Shown here piece after piece: positions 41,085-53,887 of a DNA stretch of 64,000 nucleotides; within the stretch, counting starts at the first letter, position 1, and the number at the start of each line of letters is the position of its first letter. The stretch is taken from sequence record OP778609; one strand, written 5' to 3'. The position numbers were made by a program, and so were the translations under genes. This DNA is from Escherichia phage A73. Under the pieces are notes generated by a model, which did not search any database, was not told the DNA's origin, and saw nothing but the letters and a program-made list of their open reading frames with translations.

Positions 41085-41270
41085 ATGAATAAAAGAATTA
41101 CAAACGTAAATCCTGGCGAACGTTTCCAACATGAGGGGCATTTGCACACTGTAGTAAGCAACAAAGAGCATACTGTAAGAGTAAATAGAAATATCTTGCA
41201 ACTTCGCGATCGTTTTGGTATCGTACAGACTTACACTTTCGAAGCAAATAAAACAGTTAAAACTTTCTGA
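41085..41270 (+). CDS. hypothetical early protein
   Basis: 61-aa ORF downstream of a promoter. Confidence 0.45.
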   Translation: MNKRITNVNPGERFQHEGHLHTVVSNKEHTVRVNRNILQLRDRFGIVQTYTFEANKTVKTF

Positions 41271-41281
41271 GGATTTTTAAA

Positions 41282-41617
41282 ATGGCACTAGTCACTAAGT
41301 ATTTCATTGAAGGCCAGCAAGCGGCGCAACAAGGTTACAGCCGTGTTACTCGTTATAAGAAAGAAGAAAACAAGATTGAATTTTTCAAGGGTTACGATAG
41401 TGTAAACCGTGATGCAATGGTCCTACGCTTCGAATCCGATCCAGTGGGCAAGCCTGTTACCTCTTACCAGGCATCACCGCAGATTGTTTATGTTGGTACT
41501 GTTAAAGAATGTAACGACAAGTTAATCACTTTGAAGCAGGCCGATCGTGCGGGTTACTTTGTTGTTTACACTGCTGACGGTAAGCCTTACCAGTACGAAA
41601 GCAAATATTTTAAATAA
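41282..41617 (+). CDS. hypothetical early protein
   Basis: 111 aa; RBS GAGGA. Confidence 0.5.
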   Translation: MALVTKYFIEGQQAAQQGYSRVTRYKKEENKIEFFKGYDSVNRDAMVLRFESDPVGKPVTSYQASPQIVYVGTVKECNDKLITLKQADRAGYFVVYTADGKPYQYESKYFK

Positions 41618-41707
41618 AAAGTATTGACAGAAAGAAAGAAGTAAATTAAATTATACCACGTAACGCCGCAATCGTGCGGCAATAAAAACTGATAGGAATT
41701 GAACAAA

Positions 41708-41920
41708 ATGGCTAAAATCATCATTAAAAAATCCCGTGTATCTTCTGTTGCTCGCGTCGAAATGGTAAACACTATGCCAGGTTACCGGACTCGCGAGGAA
41801 GCCCGAAGCGTTGCAAAACAGATTAAAGCCCGTGGCTTAACTGTAAGTGCACCGACCAAAACACAAGAAGGATGGAAGGTATCTATTAAATCCGGTACAC
41901 TGTCAATCAATAAACACTAA
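41708..41920 (+). CDS. hypothetical early protein
   Basis: 70 aa from the ATG (track start is an upstream TTG at 41699); RBS AGGAA; basic protein. Confidence 0.45.
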   Translation: MAKIIIKKSRVSSVARVEMVNTMPGYRTREEARSVAKQIKARGLTVSAPTKTQEGWKVSIKSGTLSINKH

Positions 41921-41983
41921 TAGCCAAAACATTAACGGGGCAACTTTGCCCCTCATTAAATAACATTATCCAGGAGTATTAAC

Positions 41984-42142
41984 ATGACTAGCCAAAACAC
42001 TAACATTGAAAAAATCAACATTACTAAAGAGCGTAAAGCATGGAATGAAACATTAAATCTCAAAGGTAAGAAGCTAAATAAAACTAAACGCGATCGCAGT
42101 ACAAAGCGGGCCTTTTGTGAATTTACAGCGGATCAAGAATGA
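41984..42142 (+). CDS. hypothetical small basic protein
   Basis: 52-aa ORF absent from the track; preceded by GGGGCAACTTTGCCCC hairpin and RBS CAGGAG. Confidence 0.4.
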   Translation: MTSQNTNIEKINITKERKAWNETLNLKGKKLNKTKRDRSTKRAFCEFTADQE

Positions 42143-42438
42143 TGATTAAAGTTATTGCACTTACTACTTTATTGTGTATACCATTTTTGGCGCACGGTAC
42201 TAAGTTTTACGGTGCTAACTTGATAGATTGTAAAGCTCATATGCTGGACCATGAAACAGGCAACAAATTTGTTAAGCCTTTCCAGATCAATCCAGCGGCA
42301 TTTAGTGACGGTGTTTTGTATCAGGAAGGTAAAGCCAGTACGCTGATAATCCATTACGATCCAGCGACAAAGAAAGGTAGCTTATCAATCCAGATTGAAG
42401 GCGCGGAAGAGTTTTCAGGTAAAATAATCTGCAATTAA
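42139..42438 (+). CDS. secreted small protein
   Basis: 99 aa; N-terminal signal peptide (ALTTLLCIPFLAHG). Confidence 0.5.
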   Translation: MMIKVIALTTLLCIPFLAHGTKFYGANLIDCKAHMLDHETGNKFVKPFQINPAAFSDGVLYQEGKASTLIIHYDPATKKGSLSIQIEGAEEFSGKIICN

Positions 42439-42444
42439 TATGTT

Positions 42445-42476
42445 AAGGCCCGCCATTGTGCGGGCCTTTCTTTTAT
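42445..42476 (+). terminator. rho-independent terminator
   Basis: GGCCCGCCATTGTGCGGGCC hairpin plus TTTCTTTTAT. Confidence 0.7.
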
Positions 42477-42498
42477 GAAAATAATTTTGAAAATGTTG

Positions 42499-42526
42499 TT
42501 GACAGCACCGATTAAAAGCGTATAAT
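42499..42526 (+). promoter_or_regulatory. sigma70-like promoter with leader hairpin and no downstream ORF
   Basis: TTGACA-N16-TATAAT; leader hairpin CGGGGAACCAAACAAGTAACTCCCCG near 42541-42566; no ORF before the next promoter. Confidence 0.55.
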
Positions 42527-42616
42527 GTATTACATCAGGACGGGGAACCAAACAAGTAACTCCCCGTTAAGTAGTCCAGGAGTAAGACATACGAAAACCT
42601 CCCCTGATAAAATAGT

Positions 42617-42644
42617 TTGACAATAGTTTTTAGTACTGTATAAT
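42617..42644 (+). promoter_or_regulatory. sigma70-like promoter plus leader hairpin
   Basis: TTGACA-N16-TATAAT; hairpin GGGGAGAATAGTTCTCCCC near 42657-42675. Confidence 0.6.
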
Positions 42645-42695
42645 ACATTACATCAAGGGGAGAATAGTTCTCCCCACATCAAAGGAATCAAAACA

Positions 42696-42923
42696 ATGGC
42701 TATCGTAATCACTCGCGTATCTGGTACAGTTGGCAATGCGGCAGTAGTAGCGGTTATCACTAACAAGAAAGGTGCGGAACTACATTTTGCAATGTATAAC
42801 TGGTCAGTTGATGAGTTTGGTCAGTACGCTAGTGTAGAATACATTGAAACCTATCAAGTGCCGTCGATTAGTTTAACTGATTTGGGCGTTGAGCGTATCC
42901 TTTGCCTGGATGAATTAAATTAA
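42696..42923 (+). CDS. hypothetical early protein
   Basis: 75-aa ORF with promoter, hairpin and RBS. Confidence 0.5.
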   Translation: MAIVITRVSGTVGNAAVVAVITNKKGAELHFAMYNWSVDEFGQYASVEYIETYQVPSISLTDLGVERILCLDELN

Positions 42924-42931
42924 AAAAGTAC

Positions 42932-42959
42932 TTGCAAAGTAAGTCGGATAAAGTATAAT
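42932..42959 (+). promoter_or_regulatory. sigma70-like promoter plus leader hairpin
   Basis: TTGCAA-N16-TATAAT; hairpin GGGGAGAAATGATTCTCCCC. Confidence 0.55.
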
Positions 42960-43008
42960 ACATTACATCAAGGGGAGAAATGATTCTCCCCACTAAAAGG
43001 AAACTAAA

Positions 43009-43152
43009 ATGAAAACTTGTCAGTGTGGTAAAAAGTCTATTACTGGTCTGCGTCGCGGTGTTGCTTTATGCCAGTATCATTACAATAGTCAAGTATGGGG
43101 TAAAACGTGGGCTGACCAGGTTGAAGCAGCAAATAAAGCAAAAAGTAATTGA
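43009..43152 (+). CDS. small zinc-ribbon-like protein
   Basis: 47-aa ORF absent from the track; CQCG ... CQYH; own promoter, hairpin and RBS. Confidence 0.45.
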   Translation: MKTCQCGKKSITGLRRGVALCQYHYNSQVWGKTWADQVEAANKAKSN

Positions 43153-43176
43153 CAGTAAGAAGAAAAAGAGTAAACT
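43149..43176 (+). promoter_or_regulatory. sigma70-like promoter plus leader hairpin
   Basis: TTGACA-N16-TAAACT; hairpin GCGGCAATAGCGCCGC. Confidence 0.55.
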
Positions 43177-43227
43177 GTATTACGTAGAGCGGCAATAGCG
43201 CCGCCACATCAAAGAGAGAGAATCAAA

Positions 43228-43440
43228 ATGGCTAATATCCGCACTGCACTGAAAAATGCAAAACAAGTTTTATTCTCTGACGAGGAAGTATTTAATAAAG
43301 ATATTACAGGCGTTCGAAATCTTAAAGATATCTATGACATTTTCAGTATACGCATGAATATGAAACGTGTTGGAACGTTCGGGAATAAAGTACTGTATCA
43401 GAACGGTGATTATAATTTTACACTGACTATTATTAGTTGA
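43228..43440 (+). CDS. hypothetical early protein
   Basis: 70-aa ORF. Confidence 0.5.
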   Translation: MANIRTALKNAKQVLFSDEEVFNKDITGVRNLKDIYDIFSIRMNMKRVGTFGNKVLYQNGDYNFTLTIIS

Positions 43441-43533
43441 AAGTTTTAGTCTAGCGCTATTGACTTAAACCGATAGTGCTGGCATAATAACTTTTATCAA
43501 GTAGTACAAATCAAACAAAGAGAGAATACAATC

Positions 43534-43773
43534 ATGGCTAATAACAAAACTTTCAACGGTCACAAAAACAAAACTCATTGGAATGTTTCCTTGTGGATTA
43601 ATAACGATGCATCACTGTATCGACTGGCTAATGATTTCATCGCCGCTAACACTAATCGTAACGATGCGGCCCGTCATATGATGTTATTTTTAGAACAAAC
43701 CGGACAACATAAAACACCGGACGGATTCAAGTATAGTACTACTGCAATCCGTGCCGCGATGGTTGGAATGTAA
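43534..43773 (+). CDS. hypothetical early protein
   Basis: 79-aa ORF; promoter-like TTGACT ... CATAAT upstream. Confidence 0.5.
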   Translation: MANNKTFNGHKNKTHWNVSLWINNDASLYRLANDFIAANTNRNDAARHMMLFLEQTGQHKTPDGFKYSTTAIRAAMVGM

Positions 43774-43787
43774 AAAGAAAAAAGTAG

Positions 43788-43816
43788 TTGACACAAACAA
43801 GCAAAACAAGTAAATT
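43788..43816 (+). promoter_or_regulatory. sigma70-like promoter plus leader hairpin
   Basis: TTGACA-N17-TAAATT; hairpin GCGGGGAATGGCCCCGC. Confidence 0.55.
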
Positions 43817-43866
43817 AATCACATCAGGCGGGGAATGGCCCCGCTAAAAGAGAAGAGAGAAATCAA

Positions 43867-44196
43867 ATGGGCTTTTTATCTATCGTACAGACTAACTTCG
43901 AAAATGATTTTATTGCTCAAGCTATCAACATTGACAAAGGTATCCCAAATATCAATTTTGGTTTCAATAGTGGTGGTTATGAGAGATACCAGTATTTTGT
44001 AACTGACGATGGAAGTGTTTTAGGTATCAATACGGTGATGGCTAATATCCAAAACATTAATTTCAATGATCCCGATGAGCGCTCATTCTATATCGTCGGT
44101 GTCCAGGTGAACTACAATGATGACTCTTTAATCGATGATTACACTGGCGAGACGTTAGAAAGTGCTTACAGTGATGAATCAGAAGAAGAAAACTAA
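43867..44196 (+). CDS. hypothetical early acidic protein
   Basis: 109 aa; strongly acidic C-terminus. Confidence 0.5.
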   Translation: MGFLSIVQTNFENDFIAQAINIDKGIPNINFGFNSGGYERYQYFVTDDGSVLGINTVMANIQNINFNDPDERSFYIVGVQVNYNDDSLIDDYTGETLESAYSDESEEEN

Positions 44197-44210
44197 TATT
44201 AAAAAAGTAG

Positions 44211-44239
44211 TTGACTGAAAGAGTATAAAGAAGTAAGAT
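44211..44239 (+). promoter_or_regulatory. sigma70-like promoter plus leader hairpin
   Basis: TTGACT-N17-TAAGAT; hairpin GGGGGAACATTTCCCCC. Confidence 0.55.
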
Positions 44240-44294
44240 AATTAACGAATAGGGGGAACATTTCCCCCGTAAACAAAAGAAAGAGAGATTAAAA

Positions 44295-44477
44295 ATGACA
44301 GAACTGATTGCAACTACAAAGATCGAAGGCGTTAACGATGTTACTTTGTCCTATGATCCTTCTACTCTGGTTTATGTTGTGAAATATGGCAGAATGATCG
44401 CAGAACTTGATTGCATTGATGAGGCTTTCGAAAAATATTTCGAACTTATCAATATTGCTTATGATGACTACCGTTAA
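44295..44477 (+). CDS. hypothetical early protein
   Basis: 60-aa ORF. Confidence 0.45.
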   Translation: MTELIATTKIEGVNDVTLSYDPSTLVYVVKYGRMIAELDCIDEAFEKYFELINIAYDDYR

Positions 44478-44507
44478 TATACAACGCAAAAATAGGAAGG
44501 TGATAAA

Positions 44508-44717
44508 ATGATCAATGAAAAAACAATCAATGACGTTCGAGAGGAAGTTTTAGCCGTTGCCGTAGAATCTGGCGCACGTCAGGCATTTTGGAAAGCTACT
44601 GATCTTTACCCTGAGCAAGCCGAAAATATTCTCAATCAGGTCAGCGTTAAACTTGAACAAATGGGAAAACTGAAAACAAGTGAGCGCCTCGACCAAATCA
44701 TTAAAGAAAGTTTTTGA
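44508..44717 (+). CDS. hypothetical early protein
   Basis: 69 aa; RBS AGGAAGG. Confidence 0.5.
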   Translation: MINEKTINDVREEVLAVAVESGARQAFWKATDLYPEQAENILNQVSVKLEQMGKLKTSERLDQIIKESF

Positions 44718-45096: not shown

Positions 45097-45237
45097 ATGA
45101 CTAATACAAACCGACAAAAAATCATCAAAACTAAAAAACTTGATTTCGATACTTATCAAGAATGTAAGAAGAAGAAAGTAAAAGATAAGCGAGAGAACAA
45201 GCGGCACGAATGGATCACTAATACAATCGATCTTTAA
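45097..45237 (+). CDS. hypothetical small basic protein
   Basis: 46-aa Lys-rich ORF absent from the track; weak RBS. Confidence 0.3.
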   Translation: MTNTNRQKIIKTKKLDFDTYQECKKKKVKDKRENKRHEWITNTIDL

Positions 45238-45284
45238 CAATCAAGGCCCGCTATAATGTGGGCCTTTCTTTATGGAGAACAGAC

Positions 45285-45597: not shown

Positions 45598-45891
45598 ATG
45601 TTATACGAAGTTTTTGCAGGTTTCTGTTTTTATGGTGCTGCCGCCGTTCGCCAGTGTGATGACTATGTAGTTGAGTCATTCGATGATCCTTTGGCGTGTG
45701 AGATTGTTACTACAGCTTATGAGCAAGATCGCCGTTGGATTAATCCAGCCTGTATCGCATCGCCTGAGGTTGAACCTATGCCGGAAGGTGAGGAATTAAC
45801 AGAGGAAGACTTGCAAGAAGTAAAAGAAGTTATGAGCTACATGATTGATAATCTGGACGCTGAAAACTTACAACGTGCATTGCAAAAATAA
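45598..45891 (+). CDS. hypothetical early acidic protein
   Basis: 97 aa from the internal ATG with RBS AAAGGTGA; the track start at 45526 lies inside the promoter. Confidence 0.45.
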   Translation: MLYEVFAGFCFYGAAAVRQCDDYVVESFDDPLACEIVTTAYEQDRRWINPACIASPEVEPMPEGEELTEEDLQEVKEVMSYMIDNLDAENLQRALQK

Positions 45892-45905: not shown

Positions 45906-45934
45906 TTGACTCGAAGAAACAAAACAATTAAATT
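45906..45934 (+). promoter_or_regulatory. sigma70-like promoter plus leader hairpin
   Basis: TTGACT-N17-TAAATT; hairpin GCGGGGAATGGCCCCGC, near-identical to the module at 43788. Confidence 0.55.
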
Positions 45935-45984
45935 AATCACATGAGGCGGGGAATGGCCCCGCTGAACAAAAAGAGATTATGAAA

Positions 45985-46359
45985 ATGGCTAAAAATACTA
46001 ACGTTTGTGATTACGCTGATCTGGTTACTCTGAATGCAGATTCTAAAATCAACCTGTCAAACGTGGAAGCGGTGCACGTCCTGGCCCGCCGCTGGTTCCA
46101 AAAGTTATATGGTAATACTTATTTCTCTTTAAGTGTAGATGTGGAGATCGCTGGTAAATTGGTAGAAGTAGTTAACGTCCCGTTTAAATATGGTTATGGT
46201 GATCATTTCGATACCGTGGCACTGGAAGAATTTAGCAAGGTTATCAACATGGAAGGAAAAGAGTTTTCAGAGTATAGTTACCTTTCCCGTTTTTGCCGTG
46301 ACAATAACATCCCTGTTTATTCGAACGCTGTTGATGTTAAACGCAAAAAAGATATGTAA
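45985..46359 (+). CDS. hypothetical early protein
   Basis: Start taken at the second ATG (MAKNTNV); track start 45979. Confidence 0.5.
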   Translation: MAKNTNVCDYADLVTLNADSKINLSNVEAVHVLARRWFQKLYGNTYFSLSVDVEIAGKLVEVVNVPFKYGYGDHFDTVALEEFSKVINMEGKEFSEYSYLSRFCRDNNIPVYSNAVDVKRKKDM

Positions 46360-46365: not shown

Positions 46366-46393
46366 TTGACAGTACATAGAAAACAAGTAAACT
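46366..46393 (+). promoter_or_regulatory. sigma70-like promoter plus leader hairpin
   Basis: TTGACA-N16-TAAACT; hairpin AGCGGGAACACTTCCCGCT. Confidence 0.55.
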
Positions 46394-46446
46394 GTATTAC
46401 ATAGAAAGCGGGAACACTTCCCGCTTATATTCCAGGAGTAAGAGAA

Positions 46447-46698
46447 ATGATCGAACAAATCAAAACTACGACGGCTAATGTAACGGGTACAGTATCGCAC
46501 TTCATTAGTGATGAATCACGGGGCGTTCCTTATTGTGCAGTACATATAAACAAAAATGGCGACTACTGGTTAACGGCGTATGGATCTTATTCTTTCGGAC
46601 GTAGTGCACACCAAAAGATCCTAGATAAAGTACAGCCAACGGGTAAAAATATTACCGCTGAGATGTTTAATAAATCACTTGCAAAGTTAAAAGCGTAA
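46447..46698 (+). CDS. hypothetical early protein
   Basis: 83 aa; RBS CAGGAG. Confidence 0.5.
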   Translation: MIEQIKTTTANVTGTVSHFISDESRGVPYCAVHINKNGDYWLTAYGSYSFGRSAHQKILDKVQPTGKNITAEMFNKSLAKLKA

Positions 46699-46759
46699 AG
46701 TATAATACATCACATCAGGCGGGGAGTGTTTCCCCGCCACAAAACGAAAGGCCAACAAA

Positions 46760-46930
46760 ATGAAAGCAAGCATGATGGTAGCGACTGTAAACATTATCAT
46801 TGGTAACGGAACTGGACACCACGAAATCATAAAAAACAAGGCTTACTCTATTAGCTCCCTCAAAAACGACATGCGTTTATCTTTGGGCCAAATCCGCGCT
46901 TACTTTCGTGAAGGCTATCAGAAAAAGTAG
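46760..46930 (+). CDS. hypothetical small protein
   Basis: 56-aa ORF absent from the track; preceded by a TATAAT element and GCGGGGAGTGTTTCCCCGCC hairpin. Confidence 0.4.
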   Translation: MKASMMVATVNIIIGNGTGHHEIIKNKAYSISSLKNDMRLSLGQIRAYFREGYQKK

Positions 46931-47462: not shown

Positions 47463-47534
47463 AAAACTTGTTGACGTTGGCTTGTGCCGTACCTATAATG
47501 GACGGCATAGGCAAACGAAATAGGATTTATAGAA

Positions 47535-47741
47535 ATGAAAAAGAAAATTGTATATAATATTATTAGCTTTATCGCAACTATCCTCCTGGCTATTGCTGGT
47601 CTATCTTTGATTGTTGCAGTAGGATCTCTGTTTCCTGGGGCAATAAGTATTAGCATAGCTTTCGCCGCATTGTCTGTTTTTACAGGGTATGCAGGGATTA
47701 AAGTTACTTACTGGTCAGAAGATTACAAATATTCAAACTAA
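47535..47741 (+). CDS. small membrane protein (two TM helices)
   Basis: 68 aa, hydrophobic; promoter TTGACG-N17-TATAAT upstream. Confidence 0.5.
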   Translation: MKKKIVYNIISFIATILLAIAGLSLIVAVGSLFPGAISISIAFAALSVFTGYAGIKVTYWSEDYKYSN

Positions 47742-47754: not shown

Positions 47755-47904
47755 ATGTACAAGCTATTAACCTGGGAAACAGAATCATCGTCACCGATCA
47801 GCCGGACCTTTTTTGATTTGTGCACGGCTTACAGGCTGGCAAAGGGAGGATATCATAAGGCCCAAATCATTGATGAATTTAATGTTATCCTTTATGAATT
47901 TTAA
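47755..47904 (+). CDS. hypothetical small protein
   Basis: 49 aa from the ATG with RBS GAGGTG; the track ORF starts inside the previous gene. Confidence 0.4.
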   Translation: MYKLLTWETESSSPISRTFFDLCTAYRLAKGGYHKAQIIDEFNVILYEF

Positions 47905-48033
47905 TCAATTCATACACTTAAAAGAAAGTTAGAAAAAGTTTTAAAAAGTGGTTGCAACAGGTATTGGATAGTAGTATAGTACTTTCAACGGGGCGAGATG
48001 GCCCAAAACGAAAAAACTTGAAAGGTGATTATC

Positions 48034-48129
48034 ATGATGGCAATTTTCTTAGTTTCTCTTCTGGTTGCTGTATGTTCTGCCACTGCTGCCGCTGTACTTT
48101 ATGACACTCGCTACAATGAGGAATAATAA
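48034..48129 (+). CDS. small hydrophobic peptide
   Basis: 31-aa ORF absent from the track; promoter TTGCAA-N17-TATAGT and RBS AAGGTGA. Confidence 0.35.
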
Positions 48130-48131: not shown

Positions 48132-48350
48132 ATGAATATTGTCAACATTACAGGTAAGACCGAGATCCTTAAGAATCTTGCACCAGGTGAGTCCACCGTA
48201 TGGATCTGCAAAGATGGAGAAGTAGAAAAACAAATGAGATTGTTTACCGCTATTTGTTGTCGGTTAAACATGAAAGTTACACAAATCCGGTCGATGATTG
48301 TTAGTGTGGGAAACATTCCGACTGAATGCATAATTCTTACAAAGATTTAA
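48132..48350 (+). CDS. hypothetical early protein
   Basis: 72 aa; RBS GAGGAA. Confidence 0.5.
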   Translation: MNIVNITGKTEILKNLAPGESTVWICKDGEVEKQMRLFTAICCRLNMKVTQIRSMIVSVGNIPTECIILTKI

Positions 48351-48426
48351 AAATAGCTTTACAACAACGATAAAATCAGTACAATACAAATCAGGCAATA
48401 AAGCCGACTAAAGAAAGGTAAAGACC

Positions 48427-48666
48427 ATGCAAACTATTATCACTAAATTTCTTCCTCCTACTAATACCCGTGGCGCTCGCATCAAAGCAAAATGTTGGTT
48501 GACAGATATCACTATCGCCTATCCGGTAGCCGAGATCAACGAAGCCCATAAACTGGCGGCAGAAGTGTTAATTACAAAATTGAAGATGACAACAGATATT
48601 GATTGGAATATCGTTGCAAGCGGTGAAACACCGGACGGCAGCGGCTACGCTTTCATTATCAAATAA
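48427..48666 (+). CDS. hypothetical early protein
   Basis: 79 aa; RBS AAAGG. Confidence 0.5.
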   Translation: MQTIITKFLPPTNTRGARIKAKCWLTDITIAYPVAEINEAHKLAAEVLITKLKMTTDIDWNIVASGETPDGSGYAFIIK

Positions 48667-48720: not shown

Positions 48721-48999
48721 ATGACTATTACTAAATTATCCACCGAAGAGATCACCAACATTCTGACTACTAATCTTGAAGATTGGAAGCGTGAAGCTGA
48801 TTTGCAAGCAACCTGTAAGCTGAATACAGAGCTAACATCAGACGATATTGAAACGATCGTCCATGCTGATTTCTATGATGCTTTGCATGATGATTCTATC
48901 ATCCTTGAAACGATGCTAGATAATGCCTGGATTAATCCCGATTTGGCGGCGTATGGTCGTAGCACCTTTATCACTATCCACAATATTTATAACCGTTAA
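48721..48999 (+). CDS. hypothetical early protein (paralog of 49671-49949)
   Basis: 92 aa; MTI(T/A)KLSTEEI ... TTNLE(D/Q)WKREAD ... FITIH(N/D)IYN shared with the other copy. Confidence 0.55.
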   Translation: MTITKLSTEEITNILTTNLEDWKREADLQATCKLNTELTSDDIETIVHADFYDALHDDSIILETMLDNAWINPDLAAYGRSTFITIHNIYNR

Positions 49000-49126: not shown

Positions 49127-49154
49127 TTGACGGCAATTAATAATCTGGTAAAGT
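49127..49154 (+). promoter_or_regulatory. sigma70-like promoter plus leader hairpin
   Basis: TTGACG-N16-TAAAGT; hairpin GGCGGCAATAGCGCCGCC. Confidence 0.55.
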
Positions 49155-49201
49155 GTACCACGTAAGGCGGCAATAGCGCCGCCATTAAAGAGATAAACGA
49201 A

Positions 49202-49588
49202 ATGAAACAAGAAATCATCAATGAAATTATTAGCGGTTACAAAGAAGCCTTTATTTTCGCTGAATCAGCAACAGATCAGCACGGGGAGTATATCGATAAC
49301 CTTGATCCTTATGACTTCTCCCAGGATGCAAACGACCGGATCGCCCAGGATGTGACAGCCTTTATCAATGCTAATGTTGCCGCTATCTCTGAAGCGATGA
49401 GCGACGGCGCTACAGCCAACCAGATCGGGAATGATTTACATTTTACCCGTAACGGTCACGGTGTAGGCTTTTGGGATCGCCCTGAAATATACACCACTAA
49501 CACGGCTAACCGTTTGAGCAATGCCGCTAAATTAATGCCTAACGTGTCAGCTTACATTGGGAAAGATAATCTGATTTATATTGAATAA
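49202..49588 (+). CDS. hypothetical early protein
   Basis: 128-aa ORF. Confidence 0.5.
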   Translation: MKQEIINEIISGYKEAFIFAESATDQHGEYIDNLDPYDFSQDANDRIAQDVTAFINANVAAISEAMSDGATANQIGNDLHFTRNGHGVGFWDRPEIYTTNTANRLSNAAKLMPNVSAYIGKDNLIYIE

Positions 49589-49594: not shown

Positions 49595-49622
49595 TTGACA
49601 AGCTGAATCAACCTGATAAGAT
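49595..49622 (+). promoter_or_regulatory. sigma70-like promoter plus leader hairpin
   Basis: TTGACA-N16-TAAGAT; hairpin GGGGCGACAAGCGCCCC. Confidence 0.55.
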
Positions 49623-49670
49623 GTATCACATAGGGGCGACAAGCGCCCCGCCTAACAGAGAGATAGAATC

Positions 49671-49949
49671 ATGACCATCGCCAAATTATCCACCGAAGAA
49701 ATCGAACAAGTGTTAACTACTAACCTGGAACAATGGAAACGTGAGGCAGATATACAATCAGCAAAATGGCTTAACGAGAAGTTAACACCGGATGATCTGA
49801 GTAAGATTATAGATCCTCAATTCTATGAAGATATTCACGACACGGCGTTATCCGTTGAGGATGTACTCGATAAGCATTACATTGCTACTGATTTGCAGGT
49901 TTACGGGCGTAAAAACTTTATTACTATTCACGACATTTACAATAACTAA
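49671..49949 (+). CDS. hypothetical early protein (paralog of 48721-48999)
   Basis: 92 aa; see 48721-48999. Confidence 0.55.
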   Translation: MTIAKLSTEEIEQVLTTNLEQWKREADIQSAKWLNEKLTPDDLSKIIDPQFYEDIHDTALSVEDVLDKHYIATDLQVYGRKNFITIHDIYNN

Positions 49950-49984
49950 GGGCGGCAACGCCCTACAACTAAAAGGGTAATATT

Positions 49985-50179
49985 ATGACGTTAGCAACAT
50001 GCACCGGATCAAAAATTGCTTGCTTTGAGTTTATGGAAGACTATGAAACGACAGCTATCACCGATCAATATATCACCGTGATCACGCGTGACGGTATCGC
50101 CTGGCATGTTCCGGTTTATGATGGGGATACCTATGAAGTCACCGACAGCGGCGGCAATACAGCTATCTTTGTTGTCTAA
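49985..50179 (+). CDS. hypothetical early protein
   Basis: 64-aa ORF. Confidence 0.45.
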   Translation: MTLATCTGSKIACFEFMEDYETTAITDQYITVITRDGIAWHVPVYDGDTYEVTDSGGNTAIFVV

Positions 50180-50192: not shown

Positions 50193-50420
50193 ATGCACAA
50201 TAACATCATTACCGATCGTGCCGCTACTATGCGCCCTGGCGATCGGGCACGTTTACAGATCGGCGCTTATCCGTTCCCTACCTATGACTTTTGCAAAGTA
50301 ACCGCTATCGAAAACAATCCCTTTGATCCTGATACCGTGATCATCTGGTACGAAGGAAAGGGAAATAAATTTGAAGACATTTTGGGGCGGGATGAGCATA
50401 TCAATATTATTCGTTACTAA
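50193..50420 (+). CDS. hypothetical early protein
   Basis: 75 aa from the ATG with RBS AAGGGGGG; the track ORF 50088 starts inside the previous gene. Confidence 0.45.
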   Translation: MHNNIITDRAATMRPGDRARLQIGAYPFPTYDFCKVTAIENNPFDPDTVIIWYEGKGNKFEDILGRDEHINIIRY

Positions 50421-50616: not shown

Positions 50617-51018
50617 ATGGCCTTTACAATCACCTCTTACACTGACGTTGCCAACATTGCTAAAACTTTCGGCCCTGAAGCCCTTAAGTATGCGGTATCC
50701 AATGGTAAACTAACGAAAGAGCAATGTTACCTGATTGGAAGCTGTAAACGTTGGGCGGCATCTCGTAACATCGAGATTGAAAACGTAAATGATGGTAACA
50801 TCGAGTATAGCGTTGATGCAGTATTCAAGGCCGTGTATTTGGGCGGTATCTACAATACCAATCTTAATGATGTTCGTATCGTTCGCACTGGTTTTGGGGC
50901 TTATGATGTTCCAGTCCGCGAAGCTATGGAAAAAGGTTATATTAATCCAGCTATTTTAAGTATGATCATGACTGAGGCCAAAGAACGTAACGAAGTACGG
51001 GCCATCCTGGGCCTGTAA
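50617..51018 (+). CDS. hypothetical early protein
   Basis: 133-aa ORF. Confidence 0.5.
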   Translation: MAFTITSYTDVANIAKTFGPEALKYAVSNGKLTKEQCYLIGSCKRWAASRNIEIENVNDGNIEYSVDAVFKAVYLGGIYNTNLNDVRIVRTGFGAYDVPVREAMEKGYINPAILSMIMTEAKERNEVRAILGL

Positions 51019-51039
51019 TGAAATATTAATCGAAAACTA

Positions 51040-51067
51040 TTGACACGGATCGTCAATATGCTAATAT
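51040..51067 (+). promoter_or_regulatory. sigma70-like promoter plus leader hairpin
   Basis: TTGACA-N16-TAATAT; hairpin GGGCGGCAATATCGCCGC. Confidence 0.55.
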
Positions 51068-51122
51068 TTATCACGTAGGGCGGCAATATCGCCGCTCACC
51101 CCTTAAAAGAGCGAGATCTAAA

Positions 51123-51338
51123 ATGGCGTTAACAAAACAAGAAATCATCGACCGCATCAAAGAGTCAACTGGCGAGAATATTGGTAATGGTTTAATTGTT
51201 AAAGTTCTTGATTATTCAAATAATCCCCTGGCACCGGAACCAGTGGCTTACAAATTATCCTGGATATCCGTATTTAGTGGTAAGCGTACAAGATGCGTAT
51301 ACTATCCGAACACCGTGGGGCGTCAGTACTGTAAATAA
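51123..51338 (+). CDS. hypothetical early protein
   Basis: 71-aa ORF. Confidence 0.45.
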   Translation: MALTKQEIIDRIKESTGENIGNGLIVKVLDYSNNPLAPEPVAYKLSWISVFSGKRTRCVYYPNTVGRQYCK

Positions 51339-51398
51339 AGGGCACTTTAATATTAATAAGGGGCGGCAACGCCCCAGGTCAACCAAAGGGAAACAACA

Positions 51399-51605
51399 AT
51401 GAGTATTGCAATGATTAGCTCATCCGACATTAAAAAGGCTTTATCTGTATTGCGCTATCACCATAGAAGGAAGGTAATCAATGACGAGAGCTATCTAGAT
51501 TCATCGTTAGAAAGCGATACGTTGGAAGCCATTTCAAAATTATCTGATTTGCATAAACGCATGACCGAAAGCAACCGATCCGACTTCATAGGGGGCGAAA
51601 TATGA
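51399..51605 (+). CDS. hypothetical early protein
   Basis: 68-aa ORF. Confidence 0.45.
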   Translation: MSIAMISSSDIKKALSVLRYHHRRKVINDESYLDSSLESDTLEAISKLSDLHKRMTESNRSDFIGGEI

Positions 51606-51862
51606 GTATTGCAATGTTAATCAATACCGTAGAAGAGGCGAAAGCATTAAAGTTACGTGTTGAACTGATTGATCAACCAGGTGGAGATCTCCTTGTACAA
51701 ATCTATCCCCCAAAGGATGATTCTGGCGCTTATGATTGGTGCTACTCTGACACGTTCGAACAAGTAGACATTAAAGCAATAACATCATTTATCAACAGGG
51801 CTATACTTGAGCAAACGATAGAACTTAACGGGATGTTAAAAACACCCTGGCACATTTACTGA
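51602..51862 (+). CDS. hypothetical early protein
   Basis: 86 aa; ATGA overlap; starts MSIAM like the upstream gene. Confidence 0.45.
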   Translation: MSIAMLINTVEEAKALKLRVELIDQPGGDLLVQIYPPKDDSGAYDWCYSDTFEQVDIKAITSFINRAILEQTIELNGMLKTPWHIY

Positions 51863-51871
51863 GTTCGACAA

Positions 51872-51900
51872 AAGGGCTTGACTTGTTCAGCCCTTTTTTG
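51872..51900 (+). terminator. rho-independent terminator
   Basis: AAGGGCT ... AGCCCTT stem followed by TTTTTT. Confidence 0.7.
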
Positions 51901-52038
51901 CTATTCTTATCAAACGGGCGGCACCTGGGAACAGGGGGAGGTAATCACTGGACGACTCCGCTATACAGTGATAGTAAATAGCTATCAATAATCTCCAAAA
52001 ATAAAATAAAACCTATCGAGTCTTTACAATTCTTTCTG

Positions 52039-52067
52039 TTGACACAACAACCGCATTACAGTATTAT
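52039..52067 (+). promoter_or_regulatory. sigma70-like promoter with conserved leader and no downstream ORF for about 300 nt
   Basis: TTGACA-N17-TATTAT and TTATCTCGTAGGG leader; stop codons dense in all three forward frames until the next promoter. Confidence 0.55.
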
Positions 52068-52341
52068 TTATCTCGTAGGGCAGCGAAGCAGTGATGTAAA
52101 GTAGTTACTCTATGATGTAAGTTCTGAGAAGTCGAATCCGATAAAGTATCAGAAAGTTTCTAAGTTTTCGAATCGTCCAGATGAAAAAGGCTGGCAAGTG
52201 TTGAGAAAGGGCACGTTGAGTAAGTCCTGAACAGGGGCGCTCCTAGACACCTTCTACTGAGATTGCGATCGAAGTGTTAAACTGTGAGAAACAAAAGAGC
52301 GCTAGGAAAGAAAGAAACAAGAAAAGAAGTTAAAAAGATTG

Positions 52342-52371
52342 TTGACACAAAAGTAAGTTGTATACTATTAT
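52342..52371 (+). promoter_or_regulatory. sigma70-like promoter
   Basis: TTGACA-N18-TATTAT with TCTCGTAGGG leader. Confidence 0.55.
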
Positions 52372-52415
52372 ATCTCTCGTAGGGCAAACATTCAAAACAT
52401 CAAAAAGGGTACAAA

Positions 52416-52691
52416 ATGTTACAACTTAACGCTAAATTAGACAAAGAAATCACTGAATTTTGGGATATGGTAGTAGCTACTGATGTGGACGGTGTAGCAA
52501 GTCCTTACCTCAATAACATCGAGTATCACAATGTTGCCGCTATCAATGCAGAACACAAAGAGAAAGGCGGTGCTGATAAATTTGCTAAAAGCAATGGCTT
52601 CACTGATGCTAATCACATGATGCAATCAGTATTGTGGCAAGCTCAAGAAGATTTCGAAGAAAAAACTCTTGAATTTGCCAGACGCTCATAA
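52416..52691 (+). CDS. hypothetical early protein
   Basis: 91-aa ORF; followed by GGGCCGAAAGGCCC hairpin. Confidence 0.5.
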   Translation: MLQLNAKLDKEITEFWDMVVATDVDGVASPYLNNIEYHNVAAINAEHKEKGGADKFAKSNGFTDANHMMQSVLWQAQEDFEEKTLEFARRS

Positions 52692-52746
52692 TAGAATAAT
52701 CAAACGGGCCGAAAGGCCCACTAACTGACCTAACAGGATTAACATC

Positions 52747-53016
52747 ATGAATCGCATCGACCAGCTTAAAGTAGTTCAGCATATGGCTTACCGTATCCTT
52801 GAAGTTCAGAAAGGGAGCAAAAAAGAAGTATGTGAGAAGGCTTATAAGGTATTCAGCCACAAAGCTGATGATTGGAAGTTGCAGAAAGTCAAAAAGGCCG
52901 ATATCCTGGGCTACCTTGAGGATGAGATCCGCCTTGCGGAGCAAAAACAGATTCGTCGTGATGAGGCAGAACATAACCAGGCCTGGCAGGAGTGGTTTAA
53001 AGGGTATACTAAGTAA
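52747..53016 (+). CDS. hypothetical early protein
   Basis: 89-aa Lys/Glu-rich ORF. Confidence 0.5.
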   Translation: MNRIDQLKVVQHMAYRILEVQKGSKKEVCEKAYKVFSHKADDWKLQKVKKADILGYLEDEIRLAEQKQIRRDEAEHNQAWQEWFKGYTK

Positions 53017-53026
53017 TATCGAAAAC

Positions 53027-53052
53027 GGGGGGTTATATGCCCCCTTTGTAAA
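53027..53052 (+). terminator. rho-independent terminator
   Basis: GGGGGGTTATATGCCCCC hairpin followed by a T-rich tract. Confidence 0.6.
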
Positions 53053-53079
53053 TATTCCATTAATTTACAATTCCCTCTA

Positions 53080-53109
53080 TTGACAAGAAAGTCAATTTTG
53101 CAGTATAGT
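53080..53109 (+). promoter_or_regulatory. sigma70-like promoter
   Basis: TTGACA-N18-TATAGT. Confidence 0.55.
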
Positions 53110-53149
53110 TATATCTCTAGCAGCAAACAACAAAACAAAGGACAACGAC

Positions 53150-53569
53150 ATGAACATCAAATCAACTAATCCGGCTTACTCTTTCGATAACGCTTTTTGT
53201 CACGGTAGTGCCGCCAAAGGTTTTGAAATTGATGGTAAACTGGTTATCGTCAATGTTGATGGGGAAGAGGTTGCAGTTTATCCAGTGGCAGACGTTAAAA
53301 GCCGTTTACAATGCCGCATGGATGTTAACGAATACCGCCTTGATCCGGTTCGTGTCGTTGCCCTGGTACTGGAAGAAGAAATTAAAGCAATGCAGCACAG
53401 CAACAAATTTATCGGCGATGCACAGGACAACATGAAAGTAAGCCGCCACAAAGTTAATGAAGCACTGAAAGATTTTGGCTTTAAAGATCTAGTTATCAAA
53501 CGTGATGAAAAATTTCGCTTTCGTAATGATCTGGCAAATCGCTACTATGAAATCTATGAAGCACTTTAA
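53150..53569 (+). CDS. hypothetical early protein
   Basis: 139-aa ORF. Confidence 0.5.
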   Translation: MNIKSTNPAYSFDNAFCHGSAAKGFEIDGKLVIVNVDGEEVAVYPVADVKSRLQCRMDVNEYRLDPVRVVALVLEEEIKAMQHSNKFIGDAQDNMKVSRHKVNEALKDFGFKDLVIKRDEKFRFRNDLANRYYEIYEAL

Positions 53570-53584
53570 GAGGTAAGACAACAA

Positions 53585-53608
53585 GGGGCCGCAATAGCGG
53601 CCTTTTCT
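53585..53608 (+). terminator. rho-independent terminator
   Basis: GGCCGCAATAGCGGCC hairpin plus TTTT, immediately before the next promoter. Confidence 0.65.
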
Positions 53609-53609
53609 A

Positions 53610-53638
53610 TTGACACCTGCTAATCATTCCTTTAATAT
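53610..53638 (+). promoter_or_regulatory. sigma70-like promoter
   Basis: TTGACA-N17-TAATAT. Confidence 0.55.
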
Positions 53639-53689
53639 GTACCTTGTAGGGCAAGCAATAACGCAAGCCCATAAATAGGACAAACTATC

Positions 53690-53887
53690 ATGACCATCGC
53701 TAATGAACTGATCGCTGTATTGAATGAAGCCAAATCTAATCAGATCGATGTACAGATCAAAGAATTGCCCAATGGCCTGATCGGTTGCACTTGCACCTGC
53801 TTCGGAAGTGACTACACAGAGGTAAGCTCTCTAGAATCTCTCATTCGTCACTTGAAATCAATAGTTGAAGATTGGAGAATCATCTAA
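53690..53887 (+). CDS. hypothetical early protein (last gene of the early cluster)
   Basis: 65 aa; followed by GGGCCGCAATAGTGGCCC hairpin. Confidence 0.5.
   Translation: MTIANELIAVLNEAKSNQIDVQIKELPNGLIGCTCTCFGSDYTEVSSLESLIRHLKSIVEDWRII

What the first reader, a model, noticed from the sequence alone, without database searches (positions are those of the whole stretch)
41085..53887. Dense cluster of about 40 individually promoted small early genes: candidate host-takeover and anti-defence pool
Genes of 30-140 aa with their own strong promoters and terminators include acidic proteins (43867-44196, 45598-45891), a zinc-ribbon mini-protein (43009-43152), secreted and membrane peptides (42139-42438, 44782-45093, 47535-47741) and a paralog pair. 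None has a recognisable motif, so this is where novel host-interfering functions would most likely lie.
Basis: inference. Interest (0 to 1): 0.45.

Follow-up and report, generated by a model that had tools for sequence, protein, structure and literature searches.

The report
Accessory early-gene cassette array, coliphage
This 12.8-kb stretch of an rV5-like E. coli phage is a real array of 39 small, dispensable genes of unknown function, mostly built from one repeated unit (host-type promoter, short RNA hairpin, ribosome site, gene) whose repeats mark where related phages have gained, lost or swapped genes. It is an ordinary kind of region with an undescribed regulatory layout.

Summary
The cluster is real. 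I count 39 plus-strand ORFs of 30-139 aa with ribosome sites, under purifying selection (pooled dN/dS 0.09-0.14). There are 23 sigma70-like promoters (19 at >=10/12 on the + strand against 1 on the - strand; shuffles give 3.1).

Eighteen GC-rich hairpins without T-tracts sit 15-31 nt upstream of start codons, and 13 of them lie 10-13 nt downstream of a -10 box, so they fall in the transcribed leader. Only 3-6 canonical terminators exist.

The same promoter-hairpin-RBS cassette recurs in rV5, Bas54 and a Phapecoctavirus. Between close relatives, 19 of 26 indel or replacement breakpoints fall in cassette elements. This is a PeSL-like modular array with a different hairpin position.

The genes are accessory. 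Phage W70 lacks 6.75 kb of the array. Published transposon data for Bas54 call the homologous cluster non-essential on K-12, with homologues of 4 window genes depleted on a clinical isolate.

No protein matches a known anti-defence or defence family. "No recognisable motif" is wrong:
- Three genes hit Pfam families (T7 gp1.1, DUF7249, DUF7170).
- 49202-49588 belongs to a family of more than 5,000 clusters with an invariant FTRNGHGVGFWDRPE motif and a confident model with no PDB neighbour.

Early timing and anti-defence roles remain inferences.

The parts
40999..41027 (+). sigma70-like promoter ahead of the first gene (TTGACG-17-TAGTAT, 9/12)
41085..41270 (+). gene, 61 aa, basic (pI 10.5)
41282..41617 (+). 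gene, 111 aa; phrog_12835; weak DUF6897 hit below the Pfam cutoff
41624..41680 (+). cassette: promoter (10/12) plus leader hairpin 41665-41680
41708..41920 (+). gene, 70 aa, very basic
41937..41952 (+). promoter-less GC hairpin, 31 nt upstream of the next ATG
41984..42142 (+). gene, 52 aa; Pfam Phage_1_1 (T7 gene 1.1 family), E = 8e-9, 36.3 bits against a cutoff of 21
42139..42438 (+). gene, 99 aa; signal-peptide-like N-terminus; its start overlaps the stop of the previous gene (ATGA)
42445..42468 (+). canonical intrinsic terminator (9-bp stem, 6 T in the next 9 nt)
42499..42616 (+). orphan consensus promoter (12/12) with a leader but no gene; in A5-4 and UPEC06 this promoter is followed by extra genes
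42617..42675 (+). cassette: promoter (12/12) plus leader hairpin 42657-42675
42696..42923 (+). gene, 75 aa, acidic
42932..42991 (+). cassette: promoter (10/12) plus leader hairpin 42972-42991
43009..43152 (+). ORF, 47 aa, with C4, C6, C21, H24; coding status least certain
43149..43204 (+). cassette: promoter (10/12) plus leader hairpin 43189-43204
43228..43440 (+). gene, 70 aa
43451..43488 (+). promoter (10/12) with a 12-bp hairpin overlapping the -35 box and spacer (RB49-PeSL-like geometry); an indel breakpoint lies here
43534..43773 (+). gene, 79 aa; Pfam DUF7249 (E = 8.6e-13), phrog_871; A5-4 carries a second copy
43788..43845 (+). cassette: promoter (10/12) plus leader hairpin 43827-43845
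43867..44196 (+). gene, 109 aa, acidic (pI 4.1); phrog_18238
44211..44268 (+). cassette: promoter (9/12) plus leader hairpin 44252-44268
44295..44477 (+). gene, 60 aa; homologue of bas54_0123 (47% identity), which is depleted in a clinical isolate
44508..44717 (+). gene, 69 aa
44782..45093 (+). gene, 103 aa, N-terminal TM segment; phrog_7903
45097..45237 (+). gene, 46 aa, very basic
45243..45266 (+). canonical intrinsic terminator; TATAAT lies in its loop
45285..45512 (+). gene, 75 aa; A5-4 annotates the opposite strand here, but substitutions fit the + frame (22 synonymous against 3 non-synonymous)
45598..45891 (+). gene, 97 aa, acidic; phrog_8255
45906..45963 (+). cassette: promoter (9/12) plus leader hairpin 45945-45963
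45979..46359 (+). gene, 126 aa; phrog_6246
46366..46426 (+). cassette: promoter (10/12) plus leader hairpin 46406-46426; compensatory A-T to G-C change in LTH01
46447..46698 (+). gene, 83 aa; homologue of bas54_0122; fused to the C-terminus of the 53150 gene in W70
46679..46738 (+). cassette: promoter (10/12) plus leader hairpin 46718-46738
46760..46930 (+). gene, 56 aa
46999..47301 (+). gene, 100 aa
47298..47462 (+). gene, 54 aa, basic; start overlaps the previous stop
47471..47499 (+). promoter (11/12); a hairpin overlaps the -10 box
47535..47741 (+). gene, 68 aa, two hydrophobic segments
47755..47904 (+). gene, 49 aa; Pfam DUF7170 (E = 3e-14)
47952..47980 (+). promoter (9/12)
48034..48126 (+). 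30-aa hydrophobic peptide, not annotated in A5-4 or LTH01 (UPEC06 annotates a longer ORF over it); 5 synonymous against 0-1 non-synonymous changes
48132..48350 (+). gene, 72 aa; homologue of bas54_0126 (36%), which is depleted in a clinical isolate
48358..48385 (+). promoter (10/12)
48427..48666 (+). gene, 79 aa
48676..48694 (+). promoter-less GC hairpin, 26 nt upstream of the ATG; replacement breakpoint against A5-4
48721..48999 (+). gene, 92 aa, paralogue A (phrog_14947)
49127..49183 (+). cassette: promoter (9/12) plus leader hairpin 49166-49183; breakpoint
49202..49588 (+). gene, 128 aa, acidic; phrog_1915; invariant FTRNGHGVGFWDRPE motif; family of more than 5,000 clusters; AF2 pLDDT 96.8 with no PDB neighbour
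49595..49649 (+). cassette: promoter (10/12) plus leader hairpin 49633-49649; deletion endpoint in A5-4 and LTH01
49671..49949 (+). gene, 92 aa, paralogue B; absent from A5-4
49949..49964 (+). promoter-less GC hairpin, about 20 nt upstream of the ATG; deletion endpoint
49985..50179 (+). gene, 64 aa, acidic
50193..50420 (+). gene, 75 aa
50539..50597 (+). cassette: promoter (10/12) plus leader hairpin 50578-50597; insertion junctions with 27-33-nt overlaps in A5-4 and UPEC06
50617..51018 (+). gene, 133 aa; phrog_10173
51040..51097 (+). cassette: promoter (10/12) plus leader hairpin 51078-51097; breakpoint
51123..51338 (+). gene, 71 aa, unique to this phage among those compared; UPEC06 and LTH01 hold non-homologous DNA between the same two hairpins, in UPEC06 carrying a different annotated gene
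51360..51375 (+). promoter-less GC hairpin, 23 nt upstream of the ATG; breakpoint
51399..51605 (+). gene, 68 aa; homologue of bas54_0129
51602..51862 (+). gene, 86 aa; start overlaps the previous stop
51873..51894 (+). terminator (6 T in the next 9 nt)
52039..52067 (+). promoter (11/12) followed by about 300 nt with no ORF
52342..52371 (+). promoter (11/12)
52416..52691 (+). gene, 91 aa; homologue of bas54_0131
52706..52719 (+). promoter-less GC hairpin, 27 nt upstream of the ATG
52747..53016 (+). gene, 89 aa; homologue of bas54_0133 (69%; log2FC -5.18 in a clinical isolate)
53027..53045 (+). weaker terminator-like hairpin upstream of the next promoter
53080..53109 (+). promoter (11/12)
53150..53569 (+). 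gene, 139 aa; the only member conserved (85-90% aa) across Vequintavirus and Phapecoctavirus; homologue of bas54_0134 ('Intermediate' on K-12, log2FC -2.88 in a clinical isolate); family confined to these phages
53583..53606 (+). terminator-like hairpin; direct repeat of 53893-53916; deletion endpoint in UPEC06 and LTH01
53610..53638 (+). promoter (10/12)
53690..53887 (+). gene, 65 aa; absent from UPEC06 and LTH01
53893..53916 (+). terminal hairpin that closes the array

Best explanation
The region is the accessory ('hyperplastic') small-gene array of an rV5-like E. coli myophage, probably phage A73. It is built from about 23 self-contained expression cassettes.

A typical cassette has five parts:
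- an A-rich tract (AAAAAGTAG);
- a near-consensus sigma70 promoter;
- a conserved start-of-transcript sequence (ATYACRTMR);
- a GC-rich hairpin (dG -9 to -16 kcal/mol) beginning about 4-7 nt into the predicted transcript;
- an unstructured A/G-rich ribosome site about 20 nt further on, followed by one to three small ORFs.

Shown here:
- the anatomy of the cassette and its statistical excess over chance;
- its conservation in two phage subfamilies;
- purifying selection on the ORFs;
- dispensability of about half the array, and placement of gene gain, loss and replacement breakpoints in the repeated elements.

Inferred:
- Unmodified host RNA polymerase reads these promoters right after DNA entry, so the genes are early.
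- The hairpin acts at the RNA level. It would protect the 5' end of its own short mRNA, cap the 3' end of read-through transcripts from upstream, and keep the ribosome site free of upstream sequence. It is not a classical terminator.
- The repeated cassettes serve as homology for recombination that shuffles genes as units, as proposed for T4-type PeSLs.
- The proteins are host-specific accessory factors (takeover, counter-defence, membrane or exclusion functions), each of unknown biochemistry.
For: Anatomy:
- Eighteen hairpins lie 15-31 nt upstream of start codons. Thirteen of them start 10-13 nt after a -10 box.
- Predicted leaders leave the SD and AUG unpaired in most cassettes.

Excess over chance:
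- There are 20 GC-rich hairpins in 41-54 kb against 0.58 +/- 0.77 in shuffles, and 8-10 in the rest of the window.
- There are 19 strong + strand promoter-like sites against 3.1 +/- 1.7 in shuffles, and 1 on the - strand.

Not terminators:
- Leader hairpins have 0-4 T in the next 9 nt.
- Hairpins with T-rich tails exist in the same region but lie upstream of the next promoter.

Conservation:
- The same cassette occurs in rV5, in Phapecoctavirus tuntematon (18 of 35 genes, 14 with a promoter 8-14 nt upstream) and in Bas54.
- Substitutions in orthologous hairpins fall mostly in loops or preserve pairing. They include one A-T to G-C double change.

Modularity:
- Nineteen of 26 breakpoints against A5-4, UPEC06, LTH01 and W70 lie within 5 nt of a cassette element that covers 13% of the region. 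Random placement gives 4.2, with a maximum of 12 in 10,000 trials.
- Non-homologous DNA (in UPEC06 carrying a different gene) sits between the same two hairpins at 51087-51346.
- Junctions overlap by 26-33 nt inside the repeated hairpins.

Genes:
- Pooled dN/dS is 0.09-0.14.
- W70 lacks window 46694-53449.
- Bas54 transposon data call the homologous cluster non-essential on K-12 and show six genes depleted in a clinical isolate.
- The window shares only 7-8 of its 39 genes with Vequintavirus and 14 with Phapecoctavirus.
Against: - There are no transcript-end or timing data, so the start sites, and therefore the 4-7 nt single-stranded 5' overhang, are only predicted. From my own knowledge of the work of Emory, Bouvet and Belasco, 5' protection weakens when more than a few nucleotides are unpaired.
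- A test for sense-strand G.U pairs against A.C pairs was inconclusive (23 against 21). An RNA-level role is therefore not proven over a DNA-level role.
- The RB49 PeSL stem-loop cut reporter expression as strongly as rrnB T1, so attenuation by the hairpins here cannot be excluded.
- Selection also favours intergenic breakpoints because they keep genes intact. Breakpoint clustering alone does not prove recombination at the cassettes.
- The largest deletion (W70) has one endpoint inside a gene.
- The depletion of bas54_0123-0129 by a uniform log2FC of about -2 may reflect polar effects of insertions rather than separate functions.
Confidence: 0.72

Rival explanations
1. Each gene has its own promoter and its own intrinsic terminator. 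On this reading the hairpins stop transcription from the upstream unit.
For: - The hairpins are GC-rich, stable and intergenic.
- The simple scan lists several of them as terminator-like, mostly on the - strand.
- The stem-loop of RB49 PeSL211/210 lowered lacZ expression about as much as rrnB T1.
Against: - Thirteen hairpins lie downstream of the -10 box of the very promoter they would have to precede, so they would also act on that promoter's own transcript.
- They have 0-4 T in the 9 nt after the stem, against 5-6 T for the three clear terminators in the same region.
- Their distance to the next ATG is constrained at 15-31 nt, including for the five hairpins that have no promoter (21-31 nt).
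Confidence: 0.15
2. The palindromes are DNA operators. A phage repressor would bind them at about +5 to +25 of each early promoter to shut the array off at the early-to-middle switch.
For: - Inverted repeats just downstream of the start site are a classical operator position.
- A few hairpin sequence types recur within a genome and between subfamilies, for example GCGGCAAT(A/G)G(C/T)GCCGC.
- The sense-strand wobble test did not favour RNA.
Against: - At least six unrelated stem sequences occur (GGGGAGAA, GGCGGGG, GCGGC, GGGGGAA, AAGCGGGAA, GGGGCG).
- Five copies have no promoter yet keep their distance to the ATG.
- Changes in orthologues preserve pairing, including G-C to G.U changes, rather than preserving sequence.
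- No candidate DNA-binding regulator was identified in the array: Pfam gave no hit at or above a family cutoff to any DNA-binding family.
Confidence: 0.08
3. The array is mostly evolutionary debris: small ORFs that are carried along and are not translated or not functional.
For: - Thirty-five of the 39 ORFs lack any assigned family with a known function.
- Half the array is missing in W70, which still plates on K-12.
- Bas54 homologues are non-essential on K-12.
Against: - Pooled dN/dS is 0.09-0.14 against four relatives.
- Every ORF has an SD sequence at the right spacing.
- Six genes of the homologous Bas54 cluster are conditionally required.
- One member belongs to a family of more than 5,000 clusters with an invariant motif.
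Confidence: 0.05

Closest known systems
PeSL (promoter-early stem-loop) cassettes of T4-type phages RB49/phi1, PST/T4 and nt-1/KVP40 (Arbiol et al. 2010, PMC2839356; Comeau et al. 2014, PMC4122927)
   Same: - A repeated composite element: AT-rich tract, sigma70-like promoter, GC-rich stem-loop, SD and start codon.
- It is concentrated in hyperplastic regions full of small ORFans.
- Indels and replacements between close relatives are bounded by the elements.
   Different: - In RB49 the stem-loop mostly lies between the -35 and -10 boxes or overlaps the -10 box. Here, in 13 of 23 promoters it lies 10-13 nt downstream of the -10 box, in the transcribed leader. Only two units (43460 and 47471) have the RB49 geometry.
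- The host phages are unrelated myophage lineages (Vequintavirinae and Stephanstirmvirinae).
- Terminator activity and mini-circle formation are untested here.
Promoter-coupled terminators in bacteria (Fletcher et al., bioRxiv 10.64898/2026.08.19.745784)
   Same: Promoter and hairpin are packed into one short intergenic element between tandem genes.
   Different: In those elements the transcript 3' end lies about 10 bp upstream of the next start site, so the hairpin precedes the start. Here the hairpin follows the predicted start and has no T-tract.
5'-terminal stem-loops that stabilise E. coli and phage mRNAs (ompA, papA, T7 phi10 leader; cited from my own knowledge, with references listed in PMC3997798)
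   Same: A stable hairpin lies close to the 5' end and is followed by an unstructured ribosome site.
   Different: The predicted 4-7 unpaired 5' nucleotides are at or beyond the limit reported for protection. No half-life data exist for these transcripts.
Small-gene cluster of Vequintavirus Bas54 (bas54_0114-0134) mapped by HIDEN-SEQ (bioRxiv 10.1101/2025.11.20.689424)
   Same: - It is the homologous genomic module and ends at the same conserved 139-aa gene, next to the ORF-free region.
- It is non-essential on K-12.
- Some members are conditionally required in a clinical isolate.
   Different: Only 7 of the 39 window genes have homologues there. No member has yet been matched to a defence system.

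Membership tests
PeSL-type cassette array | Sigma70-like early promoter with an AT-rich tract upstream | tested here: met
   There are 23 sites. Nineteen score >=10/12 on the + strand against 3.1 in shuffles. An AAAAAGTAG tract precedes the -35 box.
PeSL-type cassette array | Adjacent GC-rich stem-loop within the same roughly 100-bp element | tested here: met
   Thirteen promoters have a hairpin 10-13 nt after the -10 box. Twenty hairpins occur against 0.58 in shuffles.
PeSL-type cassette array | Stem-loop placed between the -35 and -10 boxes or over the -10 box (the commonest RB49 arrangement) | tested here: not met
   Only the units at 43460 and 47471 have this arrangement. The rest carry the hairpin in the leader.
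PeSL-type cassette array | Enriched in a hyperplastic region of ORFans, with indel and replacement breakpoints in the elements | tested here: met
   Nineteen of 26 breakpoints lie within 5 nt of an element, against 4.2 expected. Non-homologous DNA sits between the same hairpins at 51087-51346.
PeSL-type cassette array | Stem-loop terminates or attenuates transcription; mini-circles form by recombination between elements | not testable with these tools
   This needs reporter assays, Term-seq and inverse PCR.
Intrinsic (Rho-independent) terminator | GC-rich hairpin followed directly by a U-tract, located after a stop codon and before the next promoter | tested here: not met
   The 18 leader hairpins have 0-4 T in the next 9 nt, and 13 of them lie after the promoter. 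The feature is met only by 42445, 45243 and 51873.
Phage anti-defence gene island | Sequence or fold similarity of members to known anti-defence proteins | tested here: not met
   - Pfam, NCBIfam and PADLOC searches gave nothing relevant.
- Eight single-protein searches of PDB sequences and one profile search gave nothing.
- Two structure models had no significant PDB neighbour.
Phage anti-defence gene island | Members dispensable in a permissive host but required in hosts that carry defences | tested here: inconclusive
   Published data on the relative Bas54: the cluster is non-essential on K-12, and 0123, 0126, 0127, 0132, 0133 and 0134 are depleted in a clinical isolate. None has been tied to a defence system, and the data are not from this phage.
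Phage anti-defence gene island | Expression at the start of infection | not testable with these tools
   Timing is inferred only from the host-type promoters. No transcriptome of an rV5-like phage was found.
Pfam Phage_1_1 (T7 gene 1.1 protein) | Score above the Pfam gathering threshold over the whole model | tested here: met
   41984-42142 scores 36.3 bits against a cutoff of 21 and covers model positions 1-38 of 40. The function of the family is unknown.
Zinc ribbon | Two CxxC (or CxxH) knuckles | tested here: not met
   43009-43152 has CxC...CxxH only (C4, C6, C21, H24) and no Pfam hit.

The most novel reading that the evidence does not exclude
The GC-rich hairpins are more than passive homology. 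On this reading they are the crossover sites of a dedicated cassette-exchange process, analogous to integron attC hairpins or to PeSL mini-circles. That process would move promoter-equipped small genes within and between Vequintavirinae and Stephanstirmvirinae. The same hairpin, once transcribed, would set the stability and translation of each mobile gene's mRNA. One cargo of this system is the 128-aa FTRNGHGVGFWDRPE protein, a member of an uncharacterised family of more than 5,000 clusters with no solved structural relative.
Probability: 0.15. Interest if true: 0.7.

Novelty: new variant of a known kind. Interest (0 to 1): 0.4.

Why it matters
- The comparisons give a concrete, testable rule for where accessory genes enter and leave rV5-like and phAPEC8-like phages. 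These phages are widely used in therapy cocktails.
- The unit itself is a compact natural expression part: promoter, leader hairpin and RBS.
- The work corrects gene calls in deposited relatives: one wrong-strand CDS and one 30-aa peptide missing from the A5-4 and LTH01 annotations.
- It narrows the search for host-specific factors to a few genes. These are the homologues of bas54_0123, 0126, 0133 and 0134, and the FTRNGHGVGFWDRPE protein. The last has a near-perfect predicted structure with no PDB neighbour and thousands of unnamed relatives.

Tried and rejected
- Rfam at gathering and at E <= 1, and tRNA scans, found nothing in the window or in 51.8-56 kb.
- The ORF-free 272 nt after promoter 52039 does not fold better than shuffles (z = +1.1), so it is not a structured ncRNA.
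- The 139-aa conserved gene was pursued in three ways. An exhaustive HMMER search found 6 representatives, all phage-restricted. The AF2 model is only moderate (pLDDT 72.7). Foldseek against the PDB gave nothing at E <= 0.001.
- A sense-strand G.U against A.C asymmetry test, meant to separate RNA-level from DNA-level hairpin function, gave 23 against 21 and is inconclusive.
- The late-promoter motif proposed for rV5 (TGGTAAAATA) is not enriched: 13 matches against 8.8 +/- 3.1 expected.
- A literature search for the motif string RNGHG returned only unrelated papers.
- I planned a covariance model of the cassette but dropped it. MAFFT could not place the 3' arms in register, and the direct hairpin scans already answered the question.
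- bas54_0140, a validated anti-defence gene, has no homologue in the window.

Full report
**Identity and context.** The region matches unclassified Vequintavirinae coliphages UPEC06, A5-4, A7_1, LTH01 and W70 at about 94% nucleotide identity. It matches Vequintavirus and Phapecoctavirus genomes only in patches. One encoded protein is 100% identical to A73_12 of Escherichia phage A73, so the window probably comes from that phage. In all relatives the genes are 'hypothetical protein', apart from a few names that look spurious. The array is the distal part of a + strand block that starts near 31.4 kb with an HD-domain protein and a DUF2201 metallopeptidase/VWA protein. It ends at 53.9 kb against a 1.6-kb ORF-poor region, beyond which genes run on the - strand. 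rV5 and Bas54 have the same layout: small genes, a conserved 139-aa gene, a 2.5-kb non-coding stretch, then a convergent unit.

- This includes 45285-45512, which A5-4 annotates on the wrong strand.
- It also includes a 30-aa hydrophobic peptide at 48034-48126 that A5-4 and LTH01 do not annotate.
- The exception is the proposed 'zinc ribbon' 43009-43152 (0-1 synonymous against 2-5 non-synonymous changes). It has only CxC...CxxH.
- The acidic proteins, the hydrophobic N-termini and the paralogue pair (56% identity) are as described.

**Promoters.** Sites matching TTGACA-N16-18-TATAAT at >=10/12 number 19 on the + strand and 1 on the - strand of 40981-53900. Dinucleotide shuffles give 3.1 +/- 1.7, with a maximum of 9. 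Adding five 9/12 sites with the same context gives 23 promoters for 39 genes. The other genes overlap or abut their upstream neighbour. 'Individually promoted' is therefore about 60% true.

**The hairpins are mostly not terminators.** A scan for perfect GC-rich hairpins finds 20 in 41-54 kb against 0.58 +/- 0.77 in shuffles, and 8-10 in the remaining 51 kb.
- Eighteen end 15-31 nt upstream of a start codon.
- Thirteen begin 10-13 nt after the -10 box of a promoter, at about +4 to +7 of the predicted transcript. A conserved ATYACRTMR sequence lies in between.
- They are followed by A-rich sequence, with 0-4 T in 9 nt, and the predicted leaders mostly leave the SD and AUG unpaired.
- Hairpins with T-rich tails do exist (42445, 45243 and 51873, with weaker ones at 53027, 53583 and 53893). 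They lie where terminators should: after a stop codon and before the next promoter.
- Five leader-type hairpins have no promoter but keep the same distance to the ATG. The constraint is therefore tied to the gene start, not to the promoter.

**Conservation of the cassette.** The same unit is visible in three other phages:
- the rV5 ORF164-208 cluster;
- Phapecoctavirus tuntematon of the Stephanstirmvirinae, in 18 of 35 genes, 14 of them with a promoter 8-14 nt upstream;
- Bas54, in 9 of 21 genes.

Among close relatives, hairpin substitutions fall mainly in loops or keep pairing. Examples are G.U to G-C changes and one A-T to G-C double change at 46406. Three changes only shorten a stem. A strand-asymmetry test meant to prove RNA-level selection was inconclusive.

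**Modularity.** Collinearity with A5-4, UPEC06, LTH01 and W70 breaks at 26 distinct points. Nineteen lie within 5 nt of a cassette element, although these elements cover 13% of the region. Random placement gives 4.2, with a maximum of 12 in 10,000 trials. Examples:
- Gene 51123-51338 is replaced in UPEC06 and LTH01 by non-homologous DNA, in UPEC06 carrying a different annotated gene, between the same two hairpins.
- Gene 49671-49949 is absent from A5-4, with endpoints at two hairpins.
- LTH01 lacks 49642-50578, from hairpin to hairpin.
- Gene 53690-53887 is missing from UPEC06 and LTH01 between two directly repeated hairpins.
- Insertions at hairpin 50578-50597 have 27-33-nt junction overlaps.
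- The 12/12 promoter at 42499 now drives no gene, but in A5-4 and UPEC06 it is followed by extra genes.

This is the behaviour described for PeSLs in T4-type phages. The difference is that RB49 stem-loops mostly lie within the promoter, whereas here they lie in the leader. A caveat is that selection also favours intergenic breakpoints.

**Are the genes accessory, early or anti-defence?** W70, isolated on MG1655, lacks window 46694-53449 through a deletion that fuses two genes. About 20 genes are therefore dispensable.

The HIDEN-SEQ preprint on Bas54 (MaxBurger) classifies bas54_0114-0133 almost entirely as non-essential on K-12 and 0134 as intermediate. In a comparison of K-12 with a clinical isolate, six genes are significantly depleted: 0123, 0126, 0127, 0132, 0133 and 0134. 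The sheet is labelled CFE303 but its command line names the CFE311 sample. The window homologues are:
- 44295-44477, matching bas54_0123;
- 48132-48350, matching bas54_0126;
- 52747-53016, matching bas54_0133;
- 53150-53569, matching bas54_0134.

This supports host-specific function, but polar effects are possible and no defence system has been matched. The two validated Bas54 anti-defence genes lie elsewhere. Vequintavirinae are reported as unusually sensitive to restriction-modification systems. I found no transcriptome for this phage group, so 'early' rests on promoter type alone. The late motif proposed for rV5 is not enriched.

**Protein content.**
- Pfam assigns 41984-42142 to the T7 gene 1.1 family, 43534-43773 to DUF7249 and 47755-47904 to DUF7170.
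- PHROGs places most members in families of unknown function.
- NCBIfam and PADLOC give nothing, and eight proteins have no relative among PDB sequences.
- The conserved 139-aa protein is confined to these phages, with 6 representatives among 1.84 billion proteins. It gave a moderate model with no fold match.
- Gene turnover is high. Close relatives share 35-37 of the 39 genes, Phapecoctavirus shares 14 and Vequintavirus shares 7-8.

**Verdict.** This is a genuine but ordinary class of region, the accessory small-gene array of a large lytic phage. The added value is the leader-hairpin cassette, a PeSL variant shared by two phage subfamilies and marking the gene-exchange breakpoints. Further value comes from corrected gene calls, a link to published conditional-essentiality data, and one protein family worth experimental follow-up.

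Noticed in passing
window 53917-55500: This is an ORF-poor region between the convergent units. All 5 window matches to TGTGGRCAA (one or two mismatches from the DnaA box TGTGGATAA) lie at 54085-55462: two on the - strand on the left and three on the + strand on the right. Chance expectation for the whole window is 1.2. The homologous intergenic region of about 2 kb in Bas54 tolerates no transposon insertions, so this is a candidate replication origin or other essential cis element.
   Followed up: partly
window 54501-54661: A 58-nt block is repeated at 98% identity with 103-bp spacing. Each copy ends in ATTGCCAGAGTATGGCGGGGG, and a third copy of that end sits at 54120.
   Followed up: no
window 52039-52341: An 11/12 promoter is followed by about 300 nt with no convincing ORF on either strand, then a second promoter at 52342. 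The RNA does not fold better than shuffles (z = +1.1) and has no Rfam match. Relatives annotate small - strand ORFs here. Bas54 lacks the segment.
   Followed up: partly
window 51883-51981: A 32-codon TTG ORF overlapping terminator 51873-51894 is 52% identical to the 29-aa bas54_0130, which is classed 'Intermediate' on K-12. The conservation may reflect the regulatory sequence rather than a protein.
   Followed up: no
L006 (phage W70) 14997-15350: W70_1 is a chimeric ORF made by the 6.75-kb deletion. It joins the N-terminus of the 46447 gene to the C-terminal third of the conserved 139-aa gene, so W70 lacks an intact copy of the one gene conserved across the whole phage group.
   Followed up: partly
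window 56351-56590 (- strand): This is a weak paralogue (25% identity over 84 aa, E = 3e-4) of the conditionally important 52747-53016 protein. It lies in the convergent unit on the other side of the non-coding region.
   Followed up: no
window 45258-45512 and 48132-48350: These may be distant paralogues (30% identity over 67 aa, E = 4e-4). The second is the homologue of bas54_0126.
   Followed up: no
window 58228-61726 (- strand): Three consecutive proteins of 380-414 aa carry RCC1-like repeat domains (Pfam WD40_RLD/RCC1, E = 1e-13 to 2e-25).
   Followed up: no
window 33862-33935: A promoter-like site (10/12) is followed at once by a hairpin with a T-tract (GGCATCTCGAAAGAGGTGTCCTTTTTT), just ahead of the metallopeptidase gene. 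This promoter-then-terminator arrangement is unlike the leader hairpins of the array.
   Followed up: no
L004 (UPEC06) 3532-3750 and 14140-14409; B9-1 hit H49: The product names 'phosphoribosylpyrophosphate synthetase' (72 aa) and 'DNA translocase FtsK' (89 aa, or 139 aa in B9-1) given to homologues of array genes are not supported by any Pfam, NCBIfam or PDB match. They look like annotation carry-over.
   Followed up: partly
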